Source: an uncultured virus (IMG/VR IMGVR_UViG_3300046000_006880)
Taxonomy: Duplodnaviria; Heunggongvirae; Uroviricota; Caudoviricetes
IMG/VR virus record: IMGVR_UViG_3300046000_006880
Direction: 5' to 3' (one strand)
DNA length: 20,000 bases
The translations under genes and the position numbers were made by a program. Positions 7,843-19,204 of the stretch are shown one piece after another. The notes below the pieces were generated by a model, which was not told where the DNA came from, made no database searches, and worked only from the letters and a program-made list of their open reading frames with translations. Each line of letters begins with the position of its first letter. Position 1 is the first letter of the stretch.

Positions 7843-9156
7843 TTAATCAGTCTTTTCTGTCTTAGGTATTGCCAAATGATTTCCATTGCCATCTATACAT
7901 GATATTGTGTATCCAAAATCTTCTAAGTCTTTAAAAATGTCTGAAATCTTGGTCGCATCAAATATTTTTAATGTTTCAACAGGAGGTTTTTGTGAGTTGT
8001 GCTTAAACATAATAGATGGCTTAAACTTTTCAATAGTTTCTTTTGCACCTTTAATTACTAGGTGTTCTTTACCTTCTAGGTCAATTTTGATATAATCGCA
8101 GGACTCTAGGTTTAGACTATCTATGGCTATTTCTTGTTCCGATTCCCCAAAAGAATTACCATAAAGAGTGATATCCGATAAATTGTTTGCTAACACGTTT
8201 TTACTAAGCAATTCAAATAATTTTTCCTGGGGTTCAAAACAGTGAATTTTTACATTTGAGTTAATACTCTTATAAACAACGGTGTGCGAGCCAGCGTGGG
8301 CTCCAATATCTAAAATAGTTGAAGAATTTTTTATAATGTCTGATAGGTGGTTTTCAATTAGATCTTGTTCATATATTTTATTAATAGATAAAAACTTAGT
8401 AAAGTCTAGATCGTTTTTATGGTAAGAGATGTATCCACAATCTGTTGTTTTTTCTTGTACCTCTGAGTTTTTAGATTTCCAAAACTCTGTTATTTGATTA
8501 TAAGATCTTGTGTGGCTTTGTAAAATGTGGTCTTGATTTATTGATGAGTTTAATTTTAGGTTAGTAACAAATAATGGCGTAGAGTATGTTTTTGCTGTAT
8601 AATAAATAAGAAAGTCTGCGACAGATTTTTTATCTAAATAAAAATTAAACTTATCATCTGGATAGTGTTTCTTAATTAATTTTTCAGCATACTCTCTTTT
8701 GATTAAATATGCACCTGCAGACCAATCATTAATTTCTTTTAAATGAGTATTTGTGTTTATATTTATGTTATGTATTATACACATTTGTAATATATCGTAT
8801 TTTTTATTTATATTTTTTAAAAACTCAGACCAATTAAAGTCCCAATATTGAACAGTTTCAAAACTTACATCATCTTCCATAATTATTGCATAGTCAGAAT
8901 CAGAAGTTTCAAGCCAAGTTTTTATTGCTGTCAGGTGGGACATGGCTGCACCGAGTTCTGGCTTTGTTAATGTTAATGCATCAAACTTAATTACATCTGA
9001 TTCCATGTTATGGGTGTTACCATCAATTGCATCAATAAATGTAAAATCTTTTATGCCGTGACTTTTAAATTGTTTTAGCATAAAATCTTTACGATCTTTA
9101 CGATCTTTAAGGTTGATTACGTATATTGGTCCAAAGGACTCTAATTTATTATTCAA
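7843..9156 (-). CDS. GT25-family glycosyltransferase fused to an FkbM-like methyltransferase domain
   Basis: The N-terminal half has IYVINLKDRKDR, AIDG, ELGAAMSH, IIMEDD and SAGAYLI (GT25). The C-terminal half has ILDIGAHAG, FEPQ and YIKIDLEG.E (FkbM). 8-bp overlap with the upstream gene. Confidence 0.8.
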   Translation of the reverse strand: MNNKLESFGPIYVINLKDRKDRKDFMLKQFKSHGIKDFTFIDAIDGNTHNMESDVIKFDALTLTKPELGAAMSHLTAIKTWLETSDSDYAIIMEDDVSFETVQYWDFNWSEFLKNINKKYDILQMCIIHNININTNTHLKEINDWSAGAYLIKREYAEKLIKKHYPDDKFNFYLDKKSVADFLIYYTAKTYSTPLFVTNLKLNSSINQDHILQSHTRSYNQITEFWKSKNSEVQEKTTDCGYISYHKNDLDFTKFLSINKIYEQDLIENHLSDIIKNSSTILDIGAHAGSHTVVYKSINSNVKIHCFEPQEKLFELLSKNVLANNLSDITLYGNSFGESEQEIAIDSLNLESCDYIKIDLEGKEHLVIKGAKETIEKFKPSIMFKHNSQKPPVETLKIFDATKISDIFKDLEDFGYTISCIDGNGNHLAIPKTEKTD

Positions 9157-9862
9157 ACCAATATGTCCCAGCGTGGGTTACTTTTACATAAGGGGCTAAA
9201 TAGATTGTGCCGCCAAAATTCTTCCATAACTGACAAAACTGATAATCTTCAGATAATAGTCTTTCAGACTCTGGGTTAATTCCAGTGTTCCAAAAATCGT
9301 AAACTGGATCTCCTTTTTGAATGGATCCCATTCCAGATTGATCAACTCTATATTGACCAACATGTGGTTTTAAAAAATCAAAAACTTTTCTTTTAATTGC
9401 AACAAGTCCAGTTCCAACATAAACAACCTCTACTTTGTTATTTGGATTTTTTGCAAGAATTTGTTTTTGTTCTTTACTTATGTTTACATTATATATTGAG
9501 GAATGTTTTGCTAAGTTTGTTTTTCCATCTACCGCTGCTTGTGCAACTTTTTCCCAATTAATACCTTTCATGGGAACTGCAGCACCAATAATGTCAACTT
9601 CTTCTTCCACCATTTTACACACGCCTTTTGGATCAAAACCTTCGTCGGCATCAATAAAAATAAGATATTCAGAGTTAGTTCTTAAAAATATTTCAGTCAA
9701 AGTATTTCTTGCTCGTGTAATTAATGATTCATTATATAGGTCATGGTATAAAACCTCATGTCCGCGGGACCTAAGCAAATTTATTAACTCCATCATACTT
9801 TTCATAAAAATACCATGGCAGACACCACCATACATAGGAGTTGCTATACTAATTCTAGCCAA
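9149..9862 (-). CDS. GT-A fold (GT2-like) glycosyltransferase
   Basis: IATPMYGG, NESLITRARN, the DxD motif FIDAD, GTG, LSEDYQFC and HAG. TTG start directly after the upstream TAA. Confidence 0.75.
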   Translation of the reverse strand: MARISIATPMYGGVCHGIFMKSMMELINLLRSRGHEVLYHDLYNESLITRARNTLTEIFLRTNSEYLIFIDADEGFDPKGVCKMVEEEVDIIGAAVPMKGINWEKVAQAAVDGKTNLAKHSSIYNVNISKEQKQILAKNPNNKVEVVYVGTGLVAIKRKVFDFLKPHVGQYRVDQSGMGSIQKGDPVYDFWNTGINPESERLLSEDYQFCQLWKNFGGTIYLAPYVKVTHAGTYWFE

Positions 9863-10591
9863 TTAGATTACCCCCTTTATGTTATCTAGATTTTTAAAAG
9901 ACTCAACTTTATTATACCACTTCAAAGAATTTGTTTTTATTAACATTGGCATATATTTGTCCCACAATTCTTTTCTTTCAACATATGGGCTAGTTTTAAA
10001 TCTAGAGTAGTCTGATCCAGTAGTCTTTGTGTGTTTCATAATAAGTTTATCTATTACAGCTATTTTATTTTTTGGTGCCCCTAACAAAGCGTTCCATACG
10101 TGTTCCATCCCCCACATAGACTCTGTTGCTCCAAAAGTATGAGACAAATATAACATAACTTCTTTTTTAAATGATGGCGCCATGACTTCAACAAAATTAG
10201 TAAACCTTATATCTGAATCTGGTTTATTTGCAGTAATTGGAAGATTTACATTATTTACAACTGATGGCTGTGCTATCCATAAATCATATTTTTCCATTAT
10301 TAAAAACATCTCTTCTATATCTTTTATATCAATGTCTAAATCATCGTCGGGTAGCCAAATGTATCCATACTGCTGTATTTTTTCAAAATTGTCTGTTATT
10401 ATTTCTTTTAGAAATTCATATTTTGATTTTGTTTTAATGTTAAGAAAATAAGTTGATTGTGATTTATATTTTTTTAAATTTGTTTCATTGTTTCCATAAT
10501 ATATTAAAAATAAATCAACACTGTCAGACCCAACCCATTTTTCATGTAATGAATTATCTCCAACTGCAGATATAATTAAGTTTTTATTCAT
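9863..10591 (-). CDS. DUF707-family (GT-A-like) protein
   Basis: YIWLPDDD, AQPS, FTNFVEVMAP.F and WG motifs. Start placed at ATG 10591, which gives an 8-bp ATGAATAA overlap with glf, rather than TTG 10603. Confidence 0.7.
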   Translation of the reverse strand: MNKNLIISAVGDNSLHEKWVGSDSVDLFLIYYGNNETNLKKYKSQSTYFLNIKTKSKYEFLKEIITDNFEKIQQYGYIWLPDDDLDIDIKDIEEMFLIMEKYDLWIAQPSVVNNVNLPITANKPDSDIRFTNFVEVMAPSFKKEVMLYLSHTFGATESMWGMEHVWNALLGAPKNKIAVIDKLIMKHTKTTGSDYSRFKTSPYVERKELWDKYMPMLIKTNSLKWYNKVESFKNLDNIKGVI

Positions 10592-11684
10592 TCTTAGTAT
10601 CAAAACTTTCCGTAAAATTTAATGCACTTTCTATTACTTGGTGCATATCGTAATATTTGTATTCGGCAAGTCTTCCACCAAAATAAACATTTGTCTCAAG
10701 TTTTGAAAGTTCTAAGTATTTATTGTAAAGATCTTGATTTTGTTTATCATTAATTGGATAATAAGGTTCATCTCCTTTATTCCATTCAACGGGGTATTCT
10801 TTTGTTATAATTGTTTTATTAGAATTATTTTTATAAAAATGTTTATGTTCTATAATTCTTGTGTATGGCACACTTTCTTCTGTATAGTTAACAACAGAAT
10901 GACCTTGATAGTTATCTATGTCTAAAGTCTCATGCTCAAATTCTAATGGACGATATTCCAAGTCGCCAAACTTGTAATCATAAAATTTATCTATCTGCCC
11001 TGTAAATATAATATTTTGTGCAAGGCTTTTTAAAGATTCTTTATTCTCAAAAAAATCTGTATTAAGTTTTATGTCTATTCCATCAAGCATCTTTTCAAAT
11101 ATTTTTGTAAAACCCTCAGTTGGCATTCCTTGATAATCATCAAAAAAGTAATTATTGTCATATGTGTATCTTACTGGAAGTCGTTTAATAATACTAGAAG
11201 GTAAATCTTTAGGGTCTTTTAACCATTGTTTTTTTGTATATCCCTTGATTAATTTTTCATAAATTTCTTCTCCTATATTTGCAATTGCTTGCTCTTCAAG
11301 GTTTTGAGGCTCTCCAATAAATTTTTGAGAATCAATAATATCTTTTGCTTCTTTTGGAGTATTAACGCCCCAGAGTTTGTTAAAAGTCCACATATTAAAA
11401 GGTAAAGAATATAGTTCATCCTGATATTTAGCAATTACATGATGCCTATAGTTATTAAATGTTGTGAATCTATTAATGTATTCCCAGACTTTTTTATTAG
11501 AGGTATGAAAAATATGAGCTCCATATTTACTTACATGTATTCCTTCAATTTCTTCTGTATAACAATTGCCACCAATATGATCTCTTTTTTCTACAACTAA
11601 GCATTTATATCCTTTATCTGTAAGTTCTCTAGCACATACAGAACCATAAAAGCCTGCTCCAATAATTAAAAAATCATATTTCAT
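10584..11684 (-). CDS. glf: UDP-galactopyranose mutase
   Basis: FAD motif IIGAGFYG, then HIGGNCY, YGAHIFHT, GYTKKQW, RLPVR...YF.D.YQG.P, YTRIIEHKHF, EPYYPIND and GRLAEYKYYDMHQVI. Full length at 366 aa. Confidence 0.96.
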   Translation of the reverse strand: MKYDFLIIGAGFYGSVCARELTDKGYKCLVVEKRDHIGGNCYTEEIEGIHVSKYGAHIFHTSNKKVWEYINRFTTFNNYRHHVIAKYQDELYSLPFNMWTFNKLWGVNTPKEAKDIIDSQKFIGEPQNLEEQAIANIGEEIYEKLIKGYTKKQWLKDPKDLPSSIIKRLPVRYTYDNNYFFDDYQGMPTEGFTKIFEKMLDGIDIKLNTDFFENKESLKSLAQNIIFTGQIDKFYDYKFGDLEYRPLEFEHETLDIDNYQGHSVVNYTEESVPYTRIIEHKHFYKNNSNKTIITKEYPVEWNKGDEPYYPINDKQNQDLYNKYLELSKLETNVYFGGRLAEYKYYDMHQVIESALNFTESFDTKNE

Positions 11685-11685
11685 A

Positions 11686-12279
11686 TTAACTCTTTCTTGT
11701 TACTTTAAACGCAACTTGCTCATTATGGATCTGATTATTATTGCTAGAGTATGCTATAGGCTCATATTCCCAGGAGTACGTATCTAAAAATTCTGAAAAA
11801 GCTTTAAACTCATGATCCTGCCATGTTTCATAATTAAAAAATTCATCAAACAAAAAAACACAAGTCTCTCCTAGGTAAGGCTCTATAGAGTCTAAAACAT
11901 ATTTTGTAGATGAATACAGGTCTGCATCAAAATGAACAAAAGATATATTTAACTCCTCATTTAAAAAATCTAACAGTGTTTCTTGAAATAATCCAACTAT
12001 GATTGTTGCCTTATCTATTTTTGGAATTTTATTTGTAGCAAAAAGTCCTTTTTCAAAATTTGGTCGCCAGTCTTCTGGAAGCCCAAGAAAACTATCAAAC
12101 CCATACGATTTATCTGGAAAATGTTTTGAAATTATACCCAATGTTCTTCCTGAAAAAACCCCAAACTCTAAAGCAATACCATCTTTTTTTGCTTTATCTA
12201 AAGCACATTTTAAAGTATTATCTTTATGGTTTGTTTTTTCTGCTTTAAAATAAACACTATCTATAATTTCATTGTTCAT
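11686..12279 (-). CDS. TylF/MycF-like class I SAM-dependent O-methyltransferase
   Basis: LEFGVFSG.T, GFDSF.GLPEDW, G.F.ETL, VHFDADLYSST, FDE and HEFKAF. Confidence 0.8.
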   Translation of the reverse strand: MNNEIIDSVYFKAEKTNHKDNTLKCALDKAKKDGIALEFGVFSGRTLGIISKHFPDKSYGFDSFLGLPEDWRPNFEKGLFATNKIPKIDKATIIVGLFQETLLDFLNEELNISFVHFDADLYSSTKYVLDSIEPYLGETCVFLFDEFFNYETWQDHEFKAFSEFLDTYSWEYEPIAYSSNNNQIHNEQVAFKVTRKS

Positions 12280-12287
12280 TTTTTCCC

Positions 12288-12512
12288 CTAAATAATATAA
12301 TTTGAAAAACCAATAATCTGAATGCCAATTCCTGGGGGATTTGAAGCAGAATATCCTTCAATTCCTATAGTAGTAAATCTAACTCTAAATGGAAGTATTG
12401 AATTAATTACCGTCAAAGGAGCAGAATAACTTATTTGTGTTATTGGATGATTTATGGCTTTAGGAACAGTAGTTCTATTTCTGTAATCATCAATAATTAC
12501 AGCAGTTGCCAT
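12288..12512 (-). CDS. Small conserved phage protein (hypothetical)
   Basis: 74 aa, translationally coupled (TAATG) to 12512-12916. Confidence 0.65.
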   Translation of the reverse strand: MATAVIIDDYRNRTTVPKAINHPITQISYSAPLTVINSILPFRVRFTTIGIEGYSASNPPGIGIQIIGFSNYII

Positions 12513-12916
12513 TAGTCAGTTACATCCTCAATAATTATCATTTTACCCTGGCAAACTGTCCAGACTCTATCCATGTCGCTTAGTTCAACATCAAATACGT
12601 CTCCAGTTTGTAGTTGTTCTGTTTGTACAGAAGTTAAAGAAACTGTAAACTCACCAACTTCATCATTCTCTGTTGCTACGGGAACAATTGTAAAAATAGT
12701 TCCAGCAGAATCTTGTGTAAAATCTCCTGCTGCATCTGGGCGGCGGAATTCACAAAGAATATCCCAATCGGCAATTACAAGAGGATCTTTATTATCATCT
12801 GTTGTATAAACTCTAAATGCAGCAGTATCGCCTCTAACTACCGTCCAACTAACAATTGGTGGTCTTAAACCAACATCATACGCATCTTTTATTTCTTGCC
12901 CTCTATAATTAGCCAT
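12512..12916 (-). CDS. Baseplate/adaptor-like beta-sandwich protein (WTVVRGD family, paralogue 1)
   Basis: WTVVRGDTAAF...FTVSLT..QT..L...DVFDVEL...VWTVCQG resembles BppU-N-like domains and is homologous to 18245-18640. Confidence 0.6.
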   Translation of the reverse strand: MANYRGQEIKDAYDVGLRPPIVSWTVVRGDTAAFRVYTTDDNKDPLVIADWDILCEFRRPDAAGDFTQDSAGTIFTIVPVATENDEVGEFTVSLTSVQTEQLQTGDVFDVELSDMDRVWTVCQGKMIIIEDVTD

Positions 12917-14259: not shown

Positions 14260-15147
14260 CTAGTAATAAAGGTAGAGAATACCTGCGCCACCAGAACCAG
14301 CCGTCACTCCACTATATCCACCGCCGCCGCCACCGCCACCTAATCCACCTGTTCTTCCACTTGCAATTGCTGCATAACCACCGCCGCCAGCGCCATTGAC
14401 TCCAGTTGCTCCAGCAAATTTGCCTGTGCCACCAACGGTTCCAGCATATCCAGCACCACCACCAATCCATTGTCCATTTCCACCATTGCCATGAGAACCA
14501 CCGCCACCACCAACAAGACCAGTTCCTCCAAGACCATTGCTCACGTTGTAAGCATTTCCATTTGAAGCTGTAAGGTATCCATATCCAGCTCCTCCGCCTC
14601 CAGTCCAAGCACCGTTGTTAGGTGCGCCTGATCCAGAGGAAGAACCTTCTGGAATAGAAGTAATATAAAACCCTAAAGAAGCACCTCCTGCTCCACCGCC
14701 CTGTCCTCCAGACCAGTTAGTTCCTTGACCTCCGCCTCCGCCTGCGGCAGTTCCAGTTGAACTTGGAGCACTGCCTGCTGCACCGCTAGCAGTACCAGAA
14801 TTTATCCCGCCTCGTCCCCCAGCGCCACCGCCTCTAGCAACAAGACTACTAAAAATGCTATTTCCTCCGTTAGAAGTTGCAGTTCCACCTGCGCCGATGA
14901 CTACATAGGCAGAAGGAAATACAAGACCTTGAACTAAAGAAGCACCTCCACCGCCACCTCCTGATGTAACGCCAGCACCTGAATCATAACCTTGGCCACC
15001 TCCACCGCCACCGCCGACAAGAATAGCGTAAACTTGTGTAATATTTGAAGGAATAGTAACTACTCCAGTAGACGTAATTGTTTGTTGAAGAGTTAATTGA
15101 GTTGGATTAAATCCAGAGGATGCTTCAGGGAATACTGATTGACCCAT
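14260..15147 (-). CDS. Glycine-rich (polyglycine-II-type) adhesin-like protein (copy 3)
   Basis: MGQSVFPEA N-terminus, VYAILVGGGGGGG, VVIGAGG, many GGGG runs and C-terminal GSGGAGILYLYY. Confidence 0.8.
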   Translation of the reverse strand: MGQSVFPEASSGFNPTQLTLQQTITSTGVVTIPSNITQVYAILVGGGGGGGQGYDSGAGVTSGGGGGGASLVQGLVFPSAYVVIGAGGTATSNGGNSIFSSLVARGGGAGGRGGINSGTASGAAGSAPSSTGTAAGGGGGQGTNWSGGQGGGAGGASLGFYITSIPEGSSSGSGAPNNGAWTGGGGAGYGYLTASNGNAYNVSNGLGGTGLVGGGGGSHGNGGNGQWIGGGAGYAGTVGGTGKFAGATGVNGAGGGGYAAIASGRTGGLGGGGGGGGYSGVTAGSGGAGILYLYY

Positions 15148-15347: not shown

Positions 15348-16160
15348 TTACCAGTAAACAAGCACACAGCCGTTACCGCCTGAGCCACCTGTTTCAGAAT
15401 CAGCACGGACTACACCTGCACCACCAGCACCGATTGTTACTGATGTAAAAGTTGCTGGAACCCAACCCATAATAATGGCACCTGCGCCACCACCGTGACC
15501 GCCACCGCCGTTGTTTGGCACTAAAGCAGTACTCCAAGTTCCCGCACCACCACCGCCACCACCAGAACCGCCGTTAATTCCAGTAGATAGTGCAAGTATT
15601 CCTGAACCGCCTCTGCCAGTACTTGTGTAAGTTGTACCATTGAAAAATGCAGCACCGCCAGTGCCTGCTCCAAGGTTTCCAGCGCTGTTATTTCCACCGC
15701 TTGTACCTGCGCCTCCACCTGGACCATATTGACCAGCGCCACCATTTTTGCCTGCAGTGGTAGCATTACCTCCACCGCCACCGCCTCCAGATGTGCCAAA
15801 TGAAGAACCAGCAACATTTGCGCCGCCTCCACCCGCGCCAAATGCATATAAATATTGAGAAGCAGTTGTGCTACTGCCATTATTACCAGAACCTAAAAGA
15901 CCGCCTCCACCTTGAGCAAATAAACCAGCAGCGTAAGTCATTCCCCCAAAACTAGTTGGTGTTGTTGAGTTGTAAGTTCCACCACCTTGTCCTCCGCCTA
16001 CAAGAACAACAAATACATTACTTACAGGAAATGTAATTCCTGTTGTAGTAGATGTATAAGTACGTTGCAAAGTTACGCCAGAAGGCACTTGCGTAGGCAA
16101 TTGTGCGCCACTGCTTGCACTTGTTGCACTTGTTGCTTCAGGAAATACTGATTGACCCAT
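15348..16160 (-). CDS. Glycine-rich adhesin-like protein (copy 2)
   Basis: MGQSVFPEA N-terminus, VFVVLVGGG, VTIGAGG and C-terminal GGSGGNGCVLVYW. Confidence 0.8.
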   Translation of the reverse strand: MGQSVFPEATSATSASSGAQLPTQVPSGVTLQRTYTSTTTGITFPVSNVFVVLVGGGQGGGTYNSTTPTSFGGMTYAAGLFAQGGGGLLGSGNNGSSTTASQYLYAFGAGGGGANVAGSSFGTSGGGGGGGNATTAGKNGGAGQYGPGGGAGTSGGNNSAGNLGAGTGGAAFFNGTTYTSTGRGGSGILALSTGINGGSGGGGGGAGTWSTALVPNNGGGGHGGGAGAIIMGWVPATFTSVTIGAGGAGVVRADSETGGSGGNGCVLVYW

Positions 16161-16256
16161 GATTATTTCTCCTCTATTGTAGGTGGTATAAAATTAGTGC
16201 CGTCATAAGTGTAGCCAATACCAGCGGGGTTTTCATCTGTATATTCAACACAGGTT
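16134..16256. repeat. 123-bp junction repeat, copy B
   Basis: See 15121-15243. Confidence 0.9.
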
Positions 16257-16342
16257 AGTCCAGTTACTTCTTGAGCAATTGTTTGTGTTTCAGCAAGAAT
16301 GGTATTGATTACTATTCCATTTTCAATTACTGCATAATTCAT
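16163..16342 (-). CDS. 59-aa partner of Gly-rich protein (copy 1); not in ORF track
   Basis: Hand translation MNYAVIENGIVINTILAETQTIAQEVTGLTCVEYTDENPAGIGYTYDGTNFIPPTIEEK*, with AAGGAGA RBS. Paralogue of 15147-15332 and 14059-14250. Confidence 0.85.
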   Translation of the reverse strand: MNYAVIENGIVINTILAETQTIAQEVTGLTCVEYTDENPAGIGYTYDGTNFIPPTIEEK

Positions 16343-16351
16343 TTTATCTCC

Positions 16352-17296
16352 TTAGAATCGTAATACATAAACAACACCAGCGGTACCATTTCCGCCTGCG
16401 TTGCTACCAGATTGACTAGCATTTGCACCTTGTCCGCCTCTACCTGCTCCACCTGCAAAACCAGAAGTTACAGAAGCACCAGCACTTGCTCCACGTGTGC
16501 CACCACCGCCTCCACCAGTAGTTGCATTTATTACCCAAGGAGCAGTCAATGTATTAGCAATACCAGGTCCTCCACTTGCAGATCCAGATGCACCGCCTCC
16601 ACCTTGTCCTCCTGTAGTGTTAATTGTTCCTCCAGTAGCAGTTCCACCCGTGTAAGTAGCACCGCCACCCGCACTTAAAGAACCAAATGTAGTAGTTCCT
16701 CCTGAAGTTCCGTTGCTGCCGCCATTGTTTCCAAAGTTAGGTGCTCCTGCTCCACCTGTTCCAAAAGATCCAATAGTTACAGAAATTGATCCCGTTAGTT
16801 GTACAAGTCCGTAACAAATAGAACCACCACCTCCACCATTACCTCCACTTGCAAAAGTAGTATTGTTCCACCCGCCTCCGCCGCCACCGCCTCCGCCGCC
16901 AACACACACAACATAACCAATTCCAGTTCCTGTATAAGTACCTGATGATGTAATTATATCAAGAGTTCCAGTAACTGAAGATACGGGGTTTCCAGTAAGT
17001 GTTGCAGAAATTACAATAGACGAACCAGTATTAACATAATAGCCAATTCTTGTTGCTGCAGTTGCAAGATTGAAAGTAACTGTTCCAGATGCTGTTGTTG
17101 CACTTCCAATATAAGTTGTTCCATTCCAAAAATCAACAACCGCAATTGATCCAGACGCACAAGTAATTGTATAGGTACCTGCTGCAAAGGCATTCGTTCC
17201 ATTGTACATAGTGTTTGCACTTGTTGCGGTAAAGGTTTGTGCAATTGTTGAAGCCGCTGCTGCACTAGCAGCTATTGGGAAGACTGTATTTGCCAT
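16352..17296 (-). CDS. Glycine-rich adhesin-like protein with an extra N-terminal beta domain (copy 1)
   Basis: MANTVFPIA N-terminus, ~100-aa Thr-rich domain, VVCVGGGGGGGGGG, VTIGSFG and C-terminal GTAGVVYVLRF. AGGAGA RBS. Confidence 0.8.
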   Translation of the reverse strand: MANTVFPIAASAAAASTIAQTFTATSANTMYNGTNAFAAGTYTITCASGSIAVVDFWNGTTYIGSATTASGTVTFNLATAATRIGYYVNTGSSIVISATLTGNPVSSVTGTLDIITSSGTYTGTGIGYVVCVGGGGGGGGGGWNNTTFASGGNGGGGGSICYGLVQLTGSISVTIGSFGTGGAGAPNFGNNGGSNGTSGGTTTFGSLSAGGGATYTGGTATGGTINTTGGQGGGGASGSASGGPGIANTLTAPWVINATTGGGGGGTRGASAGASVTSGFAGGAGRGGQGANASQSGSNAGGNGTAGVVYVLRF

Positions 17297-17429: not shown

Positions 17430-18158
17430 TTAAGATACAGAGATATAGACAGATTTAATCATTGCTTCACATGGATTATCTGTTCTTATTTGTGGTATTG
17501 CTCCAAAAGATTGTATTTTTTGATCCTCAACAAAAACGGTCTGCTCAATAGAAAAATCATAGTCATACTGGTATTTTAAGTTTCCTACATAGGACAATGG
17601 AGATATAGAATCATTGTCTAAAAATGTTTTAAACCAAACCTCAGTATTTGTTGTATATGTGGTCAAGGATACGTTATAACGAATTGTTACTATTGCTCCA
17701 ACATTTAAGGTTTTAAAGTTTAACTTCTGTGTAGATTTGTTCCATAAAGAAACATTGCCTTTAGGTAAATAAGCCTCTTGTGTATTACTTGATGTGCTAT
17801 TTAGTAAAAGGTTAACCCAACCATCTTCACCTTCATTAATTCCAGTTCTTTCTTGTTTAGGATATTTATTTTCATAATATCCCCAACCAATCATCTGTTC
17901 AGAAGGAGATGCTAAACTTTTACCATTAATTCCATTTTTACCATCTTTGCCATCTATACCTGGATCGCCTTTATCGCCTTTTAATCCTTGTATACCCTGT
18001 AAACCTTGTGGGCCTATTTCTCCTTTAGGACCTCGCTCACCTGTGGGCCCAGGTACTGGAAGAAATAAAAATTGACCATCACTGTCTTGAGACTGTTCTA
18101 CTTTAGTAGCGTATGTAGATTTTTTAATTGGCGAGTCCATACTTTTGGATACAGCCAT
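17430..18158 (-). CDS. Collagen-like (Gly-X-Y) fibre protein with C-terminal globular domain
   Basis: 15 consecutive triplets: [45 protein letters not shown]. Confidence 0.85.
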
Positions 18159-18164
18159 AAGGTG

Positions 18165-18248
18165 TTACTTCTTTACTTTAAATATTGTCCCGTTTATCTT
18201 AATGATAGGTGGGAGTTTAATGTTTGTGTCATTAATTTTAATTATCAT
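18165..18248 (-). CDS. 27-aa basic micro-protein; not in ORF track
   Basis: MIIKINDTNIKLPPIIKINGTIFKVKK*. It has an ATGA overlap with the stop of 18245-18640 and fills the intergenic gap almost exactly. Confidence 0.6.
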   Translation of the reverse strand: MIIKINDTNIKLPPIIKINGTIFKVKK

Positions 18249-18640
18249 AAAACACTCACAGGTGTAATATCTCCAAGAACACAAATTGTTCCAATTACTG
18301 GAGTCCAAGTTATTGTTGTATTTCCGTCTGGAACTGTTGCTTGTAAATCAAAAGAAAGTTCTGATACTACTGATTTATATTTTGTTCCCCAATTTGCTGT
18401 AGTTTCTGCTGGAGCTGTAACTGTCACAACGCTATTAGCTACTGTTACTGGAAGGTCATCTAAAACGTCTGATGTTGGATCATAAGCTGTTGCAGAGTAT
18501 GTCCAGCCATCTGTATCAAATTCTGTAACTTCGTCATTTTCAAGAAGGGATACTGTAAATGAGGCAGAATCACCACGAACCACAGTCCATTGTATATTTG
18601 CTGGGGTGGCCCCAAATTTTTCTATTGTAGGTGAGCACAT
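18245..18640 (-). CDS. Baseplate/adaptor-like beta-sandwich protein (WTVVRGD family, paralogue 2)
   Basis: IQWTVVRGDSASF...FDLQ...TWTPVIGTI.V.GDIT is homologous to 12512-12916. Confidence 0.6.
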   Translation of the reverse strand: MCSPTIEKFGATPANIQWTVVRGDSASFTVSLLENDEVTEFDTDGWTYSATAYDPTSDVLDDLPVTVANSVVTVTAPAETTANWGTKYKSVVSELSFDLQATVPDGNTTITWTPVIGTICVLGDITPVSVL

Positions 18641-18647
18641 ATCATTG

Positions 18648-18656
18648 ATTATACCA
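18648..18656 (-). promoter_or_regulatory. Extended -10 promoter, probable leaderless transcript
   Basis: TGGTATAAT-CAATGAT-ATG (7-nt spacer, no SD). Confidence 0.7.
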
Positions 18657-18659
18657 TAA

Positions 18660-18718
18660 TAAATAGGATTGACTCCTAGGGGCAGTGGGGTGGGTAGAGA
18701 GCAACCTAGGAGCCAACC
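18660..18718 (-). ncRNA. Candidate small RNA: 14-bp stem with a 24-nt C/U-rich loop
   Basis: GGUUGGCUCCUAGG-[UUGCUCUCUACCCACCCCACUGCC]-CCUAGGAGUCAAUC. It pairs fully only on the minus strand (two G-U pairs) and begins 7 nt below TGTTATAAT (18725-18733). Confidence 0.55.
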
Positions 18719-18769
18719 ATTATGATTATAACATTATATTATAAATTAACCAGGGTATATGAATTTTAA

Positions 18770-18788
18770 TTGTTATCAAATTGTTATA
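18770..18788. promoter_or_regulatory. 11-bp-period direct-repeat box (MtrA-like), copy 2
   Basis: TTGTTATCAAATTGTTATA (reverse complement TATAACAATTTGATAACAA). TGTTAT occurs at 18771 and 18782. Confidence 0.5.
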
Positions 18789-18919
18789 TTAGTAATAGTA
18801 CCAAATGTCCACTTTATACCAATAGGCCAGAGTATTGATAGTGTATACTTAAAATATATAAAGAAAAGAATAACTAACTAGTAAGGTTTTTAAGATATCT
18901 TATATATTATATATAGTAG

Positions 18920-19204
18920 TTATTTAGAGCGAGAAACATATTCAAGCAATATCTCATACATATGATCTAGTTTATCACTAGTTGCTTTTCTCAATTGCTT
19001 TGCTTCTTCTTGTTCCGCTTTAATTGCCCTAATTTCATCACGCATGCTGGTTCCGCCGTTAGTTTTGGTTTCGGCACGAATATCGCAAACCGCTTCGTGT
19101 ATAGGCTTGATCTGGACTTTAATATACCAACGAATTCCGCTAAGTAAAATTCCCCCGATTGAGAGTAATGTAAGGACAAATCCTGCCCATTCGGTTGCGG
19201 TCAT
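18920..19204 (-). CDS. Single-pass membrane protein with coiled-coil tail (actinophage lysis-region type)
   Basis: N-terminal TM helix (WAGFVLTLLSIGGILLSGIRWYI), NGGTSMRD motif and a helical C-terminus. Preceded by TGATATAAT-N9-ATG (19214-19222). Confidence 0.7.
   Translation of the reverse strand: MTATEWAGFVLTLLSIGGILLSGIRWYIKVQIKPIHEAVCDIRAETKTNGGTSMRDEIRAIKAEQEEAKQLRKATSDKLDHMYEILLEYVSRSK

What the first reader, a model, noticed from the sequence alone, without database searches (positions are those of the whole stretch)
18660..18733. Candidate phage small RNA: long stem presenting a C-rich single-stranded loop
Seen: a GC-rich island in a very AT-rich intergenic region. TGTTATAAT lies 7 nt upstream of a 14-bp stem that closes perfectly only on the minus strand (two G-U pairs), with loop UUGCUCUCUACCCACCCCACUGCC and a U-rich tail. 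The downstream gene has its own separate promoter (18648-18656), so this is not simply its leader. An MtrA-like box lies just upstream. Established: actinobacterial 6C RNA and several other sRNAs use C-rich loops to pair with G-rich or SD sequences. Inference: a ~55-nt trans-acting sRNA that could silence SD-led host mRNAs or mimic or sponge 6C-type regulation. This would be notable in a phage whose unit-leading genes are leaderless.
Basis: partly seen in the sequence, partly recalled or inferred. Interest (0 to 1): 0.7.

Follow-up and report, generated by a model that had tools for sequence, protein, structure and literature searches.

The report
Conserved actinophage hairpin small RNA
A roughly 60-base hairpin RNA gene with its own promoter, kept in many uncultured lake phages of actinobacteria, has a C-rich loop that matches, and partly changes together with, the ribosome-binding site of a small gene at the head of the phage's helicase block, so it is probably a phage-made translation regulator that also ends the upstream transcript.

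Summary
On the minus strand a 14-bp stem (18718-18705 with 18680-18667, two G-U pairs) encloses a 24-nt C-rich loop. A TGnTATAAT box lies 6 nt upstream and a U-rich tail follows, just before a second promoter and a leaderless ATG. The stem covaries strongly: 98.7% of cells pair, 9 of 10 pairs have double changes, and 0 of 500 shuffles reach this. The loop core stays nearly constant across many different stems. There is one copy per genome and no Rfam match, even at E<=10. The phage is a 98-kb lake actinophage with WhiB and a Streptomyces-phage-like portal.

The loop is complementary to the unusual G-rich ribosome-binding site of a 69-aa gene (phrog_5189) that heads a 102-aa/DnaB helicase block. 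That start region ranks first or second against the genome's own loop in 4 of 7 genomes, tied second to third in one and about eighth in this one, and is absent from the six listed in one. Divergent relatives show compensating changes.

Metatranscriptome contigs cover the hairpin, and one stops 16 nt past the stem. No discrete transcript has been shown. This scan found the same family earlier on other DNA.

The parts
18725..18733 (-). P1: extended -10 box (TGTTATAAT) of the hairpin RNA
   Evidence: Read. It fits the phage's own promoter consensus TGnTATAAT, seen before about 20 genes. A -10-like hexamer lies at the 5' edge of the hairpin in all 65 distinct related regions. The script named it in 58, and the other 7 show TATAAT in the printed string.
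18705..18718 (-). 5' arm of the 14-bp stem; the inferred transcript start is at its first or second base
   Evidence: Covariation. The start is inferred from the 7-nt distance between -10 box and ATG in the phage's leaderless genes. It was not measured.
18681..18704 (-). 24-nt C-rich loop; the core around CCCACCC is nearly invariant among relatives
   Evidence: The loop core occurs once in the 98-kb genome. It is complementary to the ribosome-binding site of the small gene at genome 46420-46629.
18667..18680 (-). 3' arm of the stem
18657..18666 (-). U-rich tail (6 U of 10); probable 3' end of the hairpin RNA and of the upstream mRNA
   Evidence: The RNA-library contig of run X23 (504 nt, depth 45.9) covers 18651-19153 and stops here without a loose end. 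This is a weak hint, because contigs cannot define ends.
18638..18656 (-). P2: TGGTATAAT plus 7 nt plus the leaderless ATG of the 131-aa gene (phrog_1084) that opens the tail-fibre genes
   Evidence: TGGTATAAT is present after the hairpin in 63 of 65 distinct related regions.
18920..19204 (-). Upstream 94-aa gene (membrane helix plus coiled coil) whose transcript appears to end at the hairpin
   Evidence: The X23 contig spans this gene's 3' part, the spacer and the hairpin.

Best explanation
This is a small RNA gene of about 60 nt. P1 (TGTTATAAT) is read by the host sigma-A-type polymerase and starts transcription at the foot of the stem. The hairpin and its U-rich tail end the RNA. The same hairpin also ends the transcript of the upstream 94-aa gene and so separates it from P2, the leaderless promoter of the tail-fibre genes.

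The stable stem holds out a 24-nt C-rich loop. The loop base-pairs in trans with the unusual G-rich ribosome-binding site (GGGTGGG in this genome, 3 to 13 nt before the ATG) of a 69-aa gene (phrog_5189, genome 46420-46629, minus strand). The reading frames of that gene, a 102-aa gene and the DnaB-like helicase gene overlap end to start, and SSB and the DNA polymerase III alpha subunit follow. Pairing would block the 30S subunit. Through translational coupling it would then turn down the helicase block, most plausibly as replication gives way to late gene expression.

Shown here: the structure, its strand, its conservation, the conserved promoter boxes, the complementarity and its partial co-variation, and that the region occurs in RNA libraries.

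Inferred: use of P1, the exact ends of the RNA, pairing in vivo, the sign of the effect (repression) and its timing.
For: Structure and strand:
- (see the observation check).

Family:
- The hairpin lies upstream of the 131-aa gene in every locus with enough upstream DNA. Of 80 loci, 77 carry it, 2 are cut off by a contig end and 1 is cut inside the loop.
- It was found on the gene strand in 78 of 80 loci fetched through the upstream gene. The two missed loci (L123, L161) show a diverged hairpin by eye.
- 58 of 80 loci examined, out of at least 120 hits to the loop motif, are family members.
- There is one copy in this genome.

Promoters:
-.

Actinophage context:
- WhiB, a DNA polymerase III alpha subunit, RecA and DnaB are present.
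- The portal is 46% identical to those of Streptomyces phages.
- whiB as a marker of actinophages is from passages of PMC10202952.

Target:
- GGGTGGG occurs 4 times in 196 kb of both strands of this genome. One is the antisense of the loop and one is this ribosome-binding site.
- This start region ranks 1 of 149 called genes.
- The same site is G-rich and loop-complementary over 6-9 bp in all 15 genomes compared (sequences).
- Cognate pairs score higher than swapped pairs: 262 against 239.5 +/- 8.3, p = 0.005, 13 distinct pairs.
- Rank of the homologous start region against its own genome's loop among about 1000 permissive candidate starts: 1 of 939 (G006), tie 1-2 of 1054 (G001), tie 2-3 of 975 (G009), about 8 of 935 (G000); tie 1-2 of 1098 (G035), 2 of 1175 (G038).
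- In the five most divergent genomes the helix uses the other side of the shared core. One position changes on both sides together: C with G in G006, G035 and G038, and U with A in G009 and G032.
- G011 and G014 differ by one extra C in the loop and one extra G in the site.
- Other high-ranking start regions are not homologous between genomes.
- The target start region is unstructured, z +0.3 to +0.6.

Expression:
- Contigs of two RNA-library runs of one study cover the hairpin at depth 46-48, against 2-4 for most other pieces laid from those runs. One of them stops 16 nt after the stem.

Mechanistic precedent:
- The C-rich loops of 6C pair with G-rich ribosome-binding sites without a chaperone (passages of PMC6486639).
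Against: - No read-level evidence exists for a discrete 60-nt RNA or for a start at P1. The RNA data are contigs of libraries that may hold DNA.
- The second contig, from a relative 92% identical, reads through the hairpin into the next genes.
- In this genome the perfect helix is only 7 bp. In a free duplex scan the start-region match was no better than with shuffled loops: best -21.2 against -19.9 +/- 2.1, with 25 of 100 shuffles as good.
- Among permissive starts, several false starts in Gly-rich genes score a point higher.
- In G032 the target was not among the six best of 1196. There the loop was extracted too long, at 27 nt, and the match is 7 bp.
- In the main clade the cognate loop is not always the best partner. 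The site of G002 would pair better with the loops of G004 or G014.
- The sequences are related, so the permutation p is not a true probability.
- In the divergent genomes part of the conserved core (the ACC after TACCC) does not pair with this site, so something else also constrains the loop.
- The 11-nt loop complement inside the 682-aa PA14-domain gene is not conserved in 5 relatives, which shows how easily single-genome matches arise.
Confidence: 0.5

Rival explanations
1. The element acts only in cis. It is the terminator or insulator between the upstream 94-aa gene and the leaderless tail-fibre operon. Its conserved loop is the landing site of a phage or host protein, for example an antiterminator that lets polymerase from P1 and upstream read into the late genes. 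This would resemble a promoter-proximal terminator ahead of late genes in lambdoid phages.
For: - The position is fixed just before P2 in 63 of 65 distinct regions.
- One RNA contig stops 16 nt past the stem, and another, from a relative, reads through.
- The sequence P1, then hairpin, then late genes recalls PR'-tR' of lambda (recalled, not tested).
- Part of the loop core is not explained by the proposed target.
Against: - A terminator needs no conserved 24-nt loop and no promoter of its own.
- No candidate RNA-binding antiterminator was found among 128 proteins scanned against Pfam or PHROGs.
- In two loci (L122, L129) the hairpin and P1 are kept while P2 and the downstream gene are replaced.
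- This reading does not account for the loop-site complementarity or its compensating changes.
Confidence: 0.2
2. It is a trans-acting RNA aimed at host mRNAs with G-rich or Shine-Dalgarno leaders, or a mimic or sponge of host 6C-type regulation.
For: - C-rich loops pairing with G-rich sites is the documented mode of action of 6C in actinobacteria (PMC6486639 passages).
- Near-invariance of the loop across very different phages would fit a conserved host target.
- Part of the core is unexplained by the phage target.
Against: - Nothing was tested on host sequence.
- There is no similarity to 6C at any threshold.
- The loop lacks the CCTCC of an anti-Shine-Dalgarno sequence.
Confidence: 0.15
3. 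It is a protein-binding decoy or substrate RNA. The C-rich loop would bind a host factor that prefers C-rich single strands, such as Rho or a KH-domain protein, or a ribonuclease, without base-pairing to any mRNA.
For: - The loop is C-rich, G-poor and conserved in sequence.
- The phage has a 70-kb one-strand gene array that would need protection from Rho.
- Rho's preference for C-rich RNA is recalled, not tested.
Against: - 24 nt is short for Rho loading.
- No evidence was gathered for this reading.
- It does not explain the compensating changes with the ribosome-binding site.
Confidence: 0.08
4. It is a DNA-level element, for example a single-strand hairpin for replication or packaging, or a cruciform.
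For: The inverted repeat exists in DNA as well, and G-T pairs are tolerated in single-stranded DNA.
Against: - The strand bias matches the direction of transcription.
- Promoter and tail are conserved in the right places.
- There is one copy per genome, between genes, and it is covered by RNA-library contigs.
Confidence: 0.03

Closest known systems
6C small RNA of Actinobacteria (Rfam RF01066; B11 of M. tuberculosis)
   Same: It occurs in the same host phylum. C-rich single-stranded loops on stable stems pair with G-rich ribosome-binding sites and repress translation without Hfq or ProQ. A replication gene (dnaB) is among the 6C targets (passages of PMC6486639).
   Different: There is no sequence or structure match: 0 Rfam hits at E<=10, and 0 matches for RF01066 in the genome. 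This RNA has one hairpin rather than several. It is phage-encoded and about 60 nt long. Its loop motif is different, and its proposed target is a phage gene.
Phage and prophage base-pairing RNAs that cover a ribosome-binding site (c4 RNA of P1/P7, DicF of the Qin prophage, OOP of lambda): recalled, not read here
   Same: They are short phage-encoded RNAs that pair with a start region and block translation of a phage or host gene.
   Different: They belong to enterobacterial phages and are unrelated in sequence. c4 is processed from a longer transcript, and DicF uses Hfq. None is a single hairpin with a C-rich loop. All these points are from recall.
Phage-encoded small RNA acting on replication machinery (bioRxiv 10.1101/2024.10.31.621285; only the search listing and start of the abstract were seen)
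   Same: It is a phage small RNA linked to replication functions.
   Different: By its title it acts on the host's replication machinery. I did not read the details.
Intrinsic (Rho-independent) terminators
   Same: It has a G+C-rich stem followed by a U-rich tract at the end of a transcription unit, and an RNA contig ends just after it.
   Different: The loop is 24 nt, against the usual 3-8, and is conserved in sequence. The element has its own promoter. The tail is only moderately U-rich. The consensus scan did not list it.
The same and a sister hairpin family noted earlier in this scan (e1-5797828; e1-6020570, e1-6063680)
   Same: e1-5797828 describes the same hairpin ahead of tail-fibre genes on another genome. 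The other two describe a hairpin whose loop matches the ribosome-binding site of a small gene heading the helicase-primase block.
   Different: Those are unchecked AI notes on other DNA. Here I tested the target idea on this family and this genome myself.

Membership tests
6C RNA (RF01066) | Match to the Rfam covariance model at or above 47 bits | tested here: not met
   There were no Rfam hits in the window at gathering score and none in 18560-18960 at E<=10. RF01066 had 0 matches in the whole 98-kb genome. The control rang in Corynebacterium glutamicum only, below the cut-off.
6C RNA (RF01066) | Several stem-loops carrying the conserved cytosines | tested here: not met
   There is a single hairpin. 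The 6C feature is taken from passages of PMC6486639.
6C RNA (RF01066) | C-rich loop pairs with G-rich ribosome-binding sites (the way it works, not membership) | tested here: inconclusive
   Complementarity, rank tests and partial co-variation support pairing with one phage start region. No binding or reporter assay was done.
Trans-acting base-pairing small RNA | Own promoter and terminator, giving a discrete transcript | tested here: inconclusive
   The -10 box and tail are conserved at fixed places. RNA-library contigs cover the element. Transcript ends and a discrete species were not shown.
Trans-acting base-pairing small RNA | Complementarity to a target that is kept through compensating changes | tested here: met
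   There are 13 distinct pairs with p = 0.005. One position changes on both sides in 5 of 5 divergent genomes. There is an indel pair between G011 and G014. Caveats: the genomes are related, cognate is not always the best partner, and G032 is a miss in the rank test.
Intrinsic terminator | G+C-rich stem directly followed by a U-tract, with a short loop | tested here: inconclusive
   The stem and a tail of 6 U in 10 are present. The 24-nt loop is outside the usual range, and the scan did not list it.
Intrinsic terminator | Transcripts end a few bases after the stem | tested here: inconclusive
   One RNA contig ends 16 nt after the stem with no loose end, while another, from a relative, reads through. 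Contigs cannot define ends.
tRNA / tmRNA | Cloverleaf detected by ARAGORN | tested here: not met
   0 genes were found in the window.

The most novel reading that the evidence does not exclude
A widespread, previously undescribed class of minimal phage riboregulators. Each is a single hairpin with its own promoter that doubles as a terminator. Its loop co-evolves with the ribosome-binding site of the first gene of the replication (helicase) block. It would give abundant freshwater actinophages a protein-free, chaperone-free switch that shuts down replication genes when the virion genes come on. The part of the loop not explained by the phage target would reach a second, possibly host, target.
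Probability: 0.4. Interest if true: 0.72.

Novelty: new variant of a known kind. Interest (0 to 1): 0.62.

Why it matters
Small RNAs of phages that infect actinobacteria are almost unknown. My two literature searches listed no paper on a small RNA of freshwater actinophages, and Rfam holds no matching family.

This family occurs in many contigs from lake metagenomes. At least 58 of the 80 motif loci examined are members, and its candidate target gene is in at least 578 viral contigs.

If the pairing holds, it gives a simple, testable case of RNA-based timing of phage replication in a phylum that lacks Hfq. It would also be a natural set of co-evolved loop and ribosome-binding-site pairs, useful for studying chaperone-independent RNA regulation. 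It further shows that one hairpin can serve as a gene, a terminator and an insulator.

Tried and rejected
- Rfam at gathering score and at E<=10, and ARAGORN: nothing found.
- INPHARED blastn with 1.2 kb around the element: no match.
- Second copies in the genome: none.
- Free duplex scan of the loop over the whole genome. The top hits were Gly-codon runs (GGT GGC repeats) in the three Gly-rich fibre genes just downstream. I judged this a composition effect, because the contiguous pairing is only 5-6 bp.
- Free duplex scan over start regions: not better than shuffled loops. I replaced it with an ungapped-helix score.
- The 11-nt loop complement in the mRNA of the 682-aa PA14-domain gene, and the 8-nt complement at the GVWGG codons of the phage whiB. 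The 11-mer is not conserved in 5 relatives; only the hairpin loci themselves matched exactly. I dropped both.
- The ribosome-binding site of the 180-aa gene just upstream of the target, which pairs with the 5' half of the loop over 9 bp including 3 G-U. I did not follow it in relatives.
- A recurrent 45-aa ORF among the top hits in G001 and G035. It lies antisense inside the portal gene, so it is an artefact.
- Host search. A PstS-like query in the genome collection gave 9 distant hits in unrelated phyla. So no host targets were examined.
- 22 of the 80 loop-motif loci were not family members and look unrelated.
- The model R1 found the hairpin in only 3 of 30 contigs that carry the target gene. 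Most of those contigs are fragments. In two complete genomes (G035, G038) the hairpin is present but too diverged for the model.
- An extended permutation test with 19 pairs was not run.
- Parts of the window without RNA-contig cover are not used as evidence.

Full report
**What is there**

The window is part of a 98,083-bp IMG/VR virus record, at 73870-93869 on the plus strand. The record is 92% complete by CheckV and has 36.5% G+C. All genes from about genome position 93.2 kb down to 19 kb lie on the minus strand.

The finding lies in a 279-nt spacer between two minus-strand genes. Upstream is a 94-aa gene (19204-18920), which has a membrane helix and a coiled coil. Downstream is a 131-aa gene (18640-18245, phrog_1084), which is followed by collagen-like and Gly-rich tail-fibre genes.

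Read on the minus strand, the spacer ends with these parts:
- an extended -10 box, TGTTATAAT, at 18733-18725
- 6 nt of spacer
- a 14-bp stem, 18718-18705 paired with 18680-18667, with two G-U pairs
- a 24-nt C-rich loop at 18704-18681
- a tail with 6 U in 10, at 18666-18657
- a second extended -10 box, TGGTATAAT, at 18656-18648
- 7 nt, then the ATG at 18640

The minus strand folds at -30.6 kcal/mol over 120 nt (z -2.8; 1 of 200 shuffles as good). The plus strand does not stand out (z -0.6; 48 of 200).

**More than chance**

Loci were fetched through the downstream gene (80 loci) and through the upstream gene (80 loci).
- The hairpin is upstream of the 131-aa gene in every locus with enough upstream DNA. 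Of 80 loci, 2 are cut off by a contig end and 1 is cut inside the loop.
- On 45 distinct regions, RNAalifold predicts a 10-bp core, and 9 of its 10 pairs have changes on both sides.
- In the pair count, 98.7% of 450 cells pair. 0 of 500 shuffles reach the observed values for four of five measures, and 24 of 500 for the fifth. Slid controls pair at 24-59%.
- 47 of the 450 cells are G-U or U-G. They would be mismatches on the other strand, so the structure belongs to the transcribed (minus) strand.
- A covariance model scores 85 bits on the minus strand and 25 on the plus strand, and finds no second copy in the 98-kb genome.
- It finds the element on the gene strand in 78 of the 80 loci fetched through the upstream gene. 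The two missed loci show a diverged hairpin by eye.
- Across at least six different stem sequences the loop keeps a nearly constant core.
Of the 80 loci listed, 58 are family members by the model and 22 look unrelated.

**Not a known family**

Rfam gives nothing at gathering score for the window, and nothing at E<=10 for 18560-18960. RF01066 (6C) has no match in the genome. ARAGORN finds no tRNA or tmRNA. The nearest cultured phages have no DNA similarity.

**Host group**

The genome encodes a WhiB-like protein, a DNA polymerase III alpha subunit, RecA, a DnaB-like helicase, SSB, PstS, Hsp20, thioredoxin and a ribonucleotide reductase. Its portal is 45-47% identical to those of 130-kb Streptomyces phages. 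whiB is used as a marker for actinophages (passages of PMC10202952). The DNA is held by 22 lake or freshwater metagenome runs. I could not reach a host genome.

**Promoters**

About ten genes of this phage have TGnTATAAT-type boxes 7 nt before the ATG, so they are leaderless. About ten more have the same box 25-30 nt before a GGAG-type ribosome-binding site. Both boxes around the hairpin fit this consensus.
- A -10-like hexamer lies at the 5' edge of the hairpin in all 65 distinct related regions. The script named it in 58, and the other 7 show TATAAT in the printed string.
- TGGTATAAT follows the hairpin in 63 of the 65.
- In the two exceptions (L122, L129) the hairpin and its box are kept while the downstream gene is replaced.
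- By the spacing seen at leaderless genes, the RNA would start at the first or second base of the stem and be about 60 nt long. This is inference.

**Expression**

Two metatranscriptome runs of one study hold parts of the stretch as contigs.
- In X23, a 504-nt contig at depth 45.9 with 17 differences covers 18651-19153. It runs from inside the 94-aa gene through the spacer and hairpin and stops 16 nt after the stem, with no loose end. The other X23 pieces listed have depth 2-4.
- In X24, a 1056-nt contig at depth 48.4 with 86 differences, from a relative, covers 17942-18988. It reads through the hairpin into the next two genes.

Contigs cannot give ends, strand or level, and RNA libraries can hold DNA. 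So this shows only that the region occurs in RNA libraries. It is a weak hint that the hairpin ends the upstream transcript, with some read-through.

**What the loop does**

Notes from earlier sessions of this scan reported two things. One is the same hairpin family on another genome, with function untested. The other is a sister hairpin whose loop matches the ribosome-binding site of a small gene heading the helicase-primase block. I tested that idea here.

In this genome the heptamer complementary to the loop core occurs four times in 196 kb of both strands:
- once opposite the loop itself
- once antisense to a gene
- once inside the reductase gene
- once 3-13 nt before the conserved ATG of a 69-aa gene (phrog_5189, genome 46420-46629, minus strand)

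The frame of that gene overlaps the start of a 102-aa gene. The frame of the 102-aa gene in turn overlaps the start of the DnaB-like helicase gene. SSB and the polymerase follow.

The evidence for this target is as follows.
- With an ungapped-helix score, this start region ranks first of 149 called genes.
- Its ribosome-binding site is unlike the GGAG-type sites of the other genes.
- The site is not buried in structure.
- In 14 further genomes that hold both elements, the site is again G-rich and complementary to the genome's own loop over 6-9 contiguous pairs.
- Cognate pairs beat swapped pairs: 262 against 239.5 +/- 8.3, p = 0.005, 13 distinct pairs. Relatedness inflates this figure.
- Against about 1000 permissive candidate starts per genome, the homologous start region ranks 1 of 939 (G006), ties 1-2 of 1054 (G001), ties 2-3 of 975 (G009) and is about 8th of 935 here.
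- It ties 1-2 of 1098 (G035) and is 2 of 1175 (G038). It is not among the six best of 1196 in G032, where my loop extraction was too long and the match is 7 bp.
- Other high-scoring start regions are not homologous between genomes. One recurrent 45-aa ORF is antisense inside the portal gene.

The clearest sign of co-evolution is in the five most divergent genomes. There the helix keeps the shared five-base core but extends to the other side of the loop. One position is C in the loop with G in the site in three genomes, and U with A in two. G011 and G014 differ by one extra C in the loop and one extra G in the site.

**Against this reading**

- The perfect helix in this genome is only 7 bp.
- The free duplex scan was no better than with shuffled loops.
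- The cognate loop is not always the best partner in the main clade.
- Part of the conserved core is not used by this target in the divergent genomes.
- No transcript ends, binding or effect have been measured.
- Single-genome matches are easy to find and misleading. The 11-nt complement in the PA14-domain gene is not conserved, and the strong free-duplex scores on Gly-codon runs in the fibre genes rest on 5-6-bp helices.

**Comparison with known systems**

The element works like the 6C RNA of actinobacteria. In 6C, C-rich loops pair with G-rich ribosome-binding sites without a chaperone, and dnaB is among the targets (passages of PMC6486639). It fails the membership tests for 6C. From recall, it also resembles phage RNAs that cover a ribosome-binding site, such as c4 of P1/P7, DicF and OOP. 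As a terminator it is atypical because of its long conserved loop and its own promoter.

**Verdict**

The element is a real, widespread, strand-specific RNA structure that is absent from Rfam and that this scan had already met on other DNA. The most likely function is a trans-acting anti-ribosome-binding-site RNA for the phage's helicase block that also serves as terminator and insulator (confidence about 0.5). A purely cis role, host targets and protein binding remain open.

An extended permutation test with 19 pairs was not run. The supplements of the papers cited were not opened.

Noticed in passing
window 15443-16878 (Gly-rich fibre genes 14260-15147, 15348-16160, 16352-17296): DNA contigs of two lake runs join 15564-15566 to 16872-16878, skipping about 1.3 kb. 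Other joints skip 205-927 nt (table 5). Strains therefore seem to differ by loss or recombination among the three paralogous Gly-rich tail-fibre genes, which would be a host-range cassette.
   Followed up: no
L163:9279-9327 (genome 28279-28327, minus strand; outside the window): A second long hairpin lies here. A C-rich 5' arm pairs with the G-rich ribosome-binding site of the 176-aa gene at genome 27743-28273, and a TGGTATACT promoter box lies in the loop. Read-through transcripts would therefore hide the site, while transcripts from the inner promoter would expose it.
   Followed up: partly
window about 18747-18790, minus strand: Operator-like repeats of ATAAC and GTTAT half-sites lie 30-60 nt upstream of P1. 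A CTGG motif lies nearer to it. Both recur in most relatives. I did not test that.
   Followed up: no
window 12512-12916 and 18245-18640: These are two paralogues of phrog_1084 (134 and 131 aa). Each heads a run of fibre genes behind a leaderless TGATATAAT/TGGTATAAT promoter. Only the second is preceded by the hairpin.
   Followed up: no
window 7843-12279: A block of glycosyl- and methyltransferase genes sits among the tail-fibre genes. A second sugar-modification block lies at genome 13-19 kb. This suggests glycosylated virion proteins or modified DNA.
   Followed up: no
Neither file holds an N. The cause is unknown.
   Followed up: no
genome 21172-21459 (outside the window): The codons for the GVWGG motif of the phage whiB gene carry an 8-nt complement of the loop. 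This is probably a by-product of Trp-Gly-Gly codons. I did not check it in relatives.
   Followed up: partly
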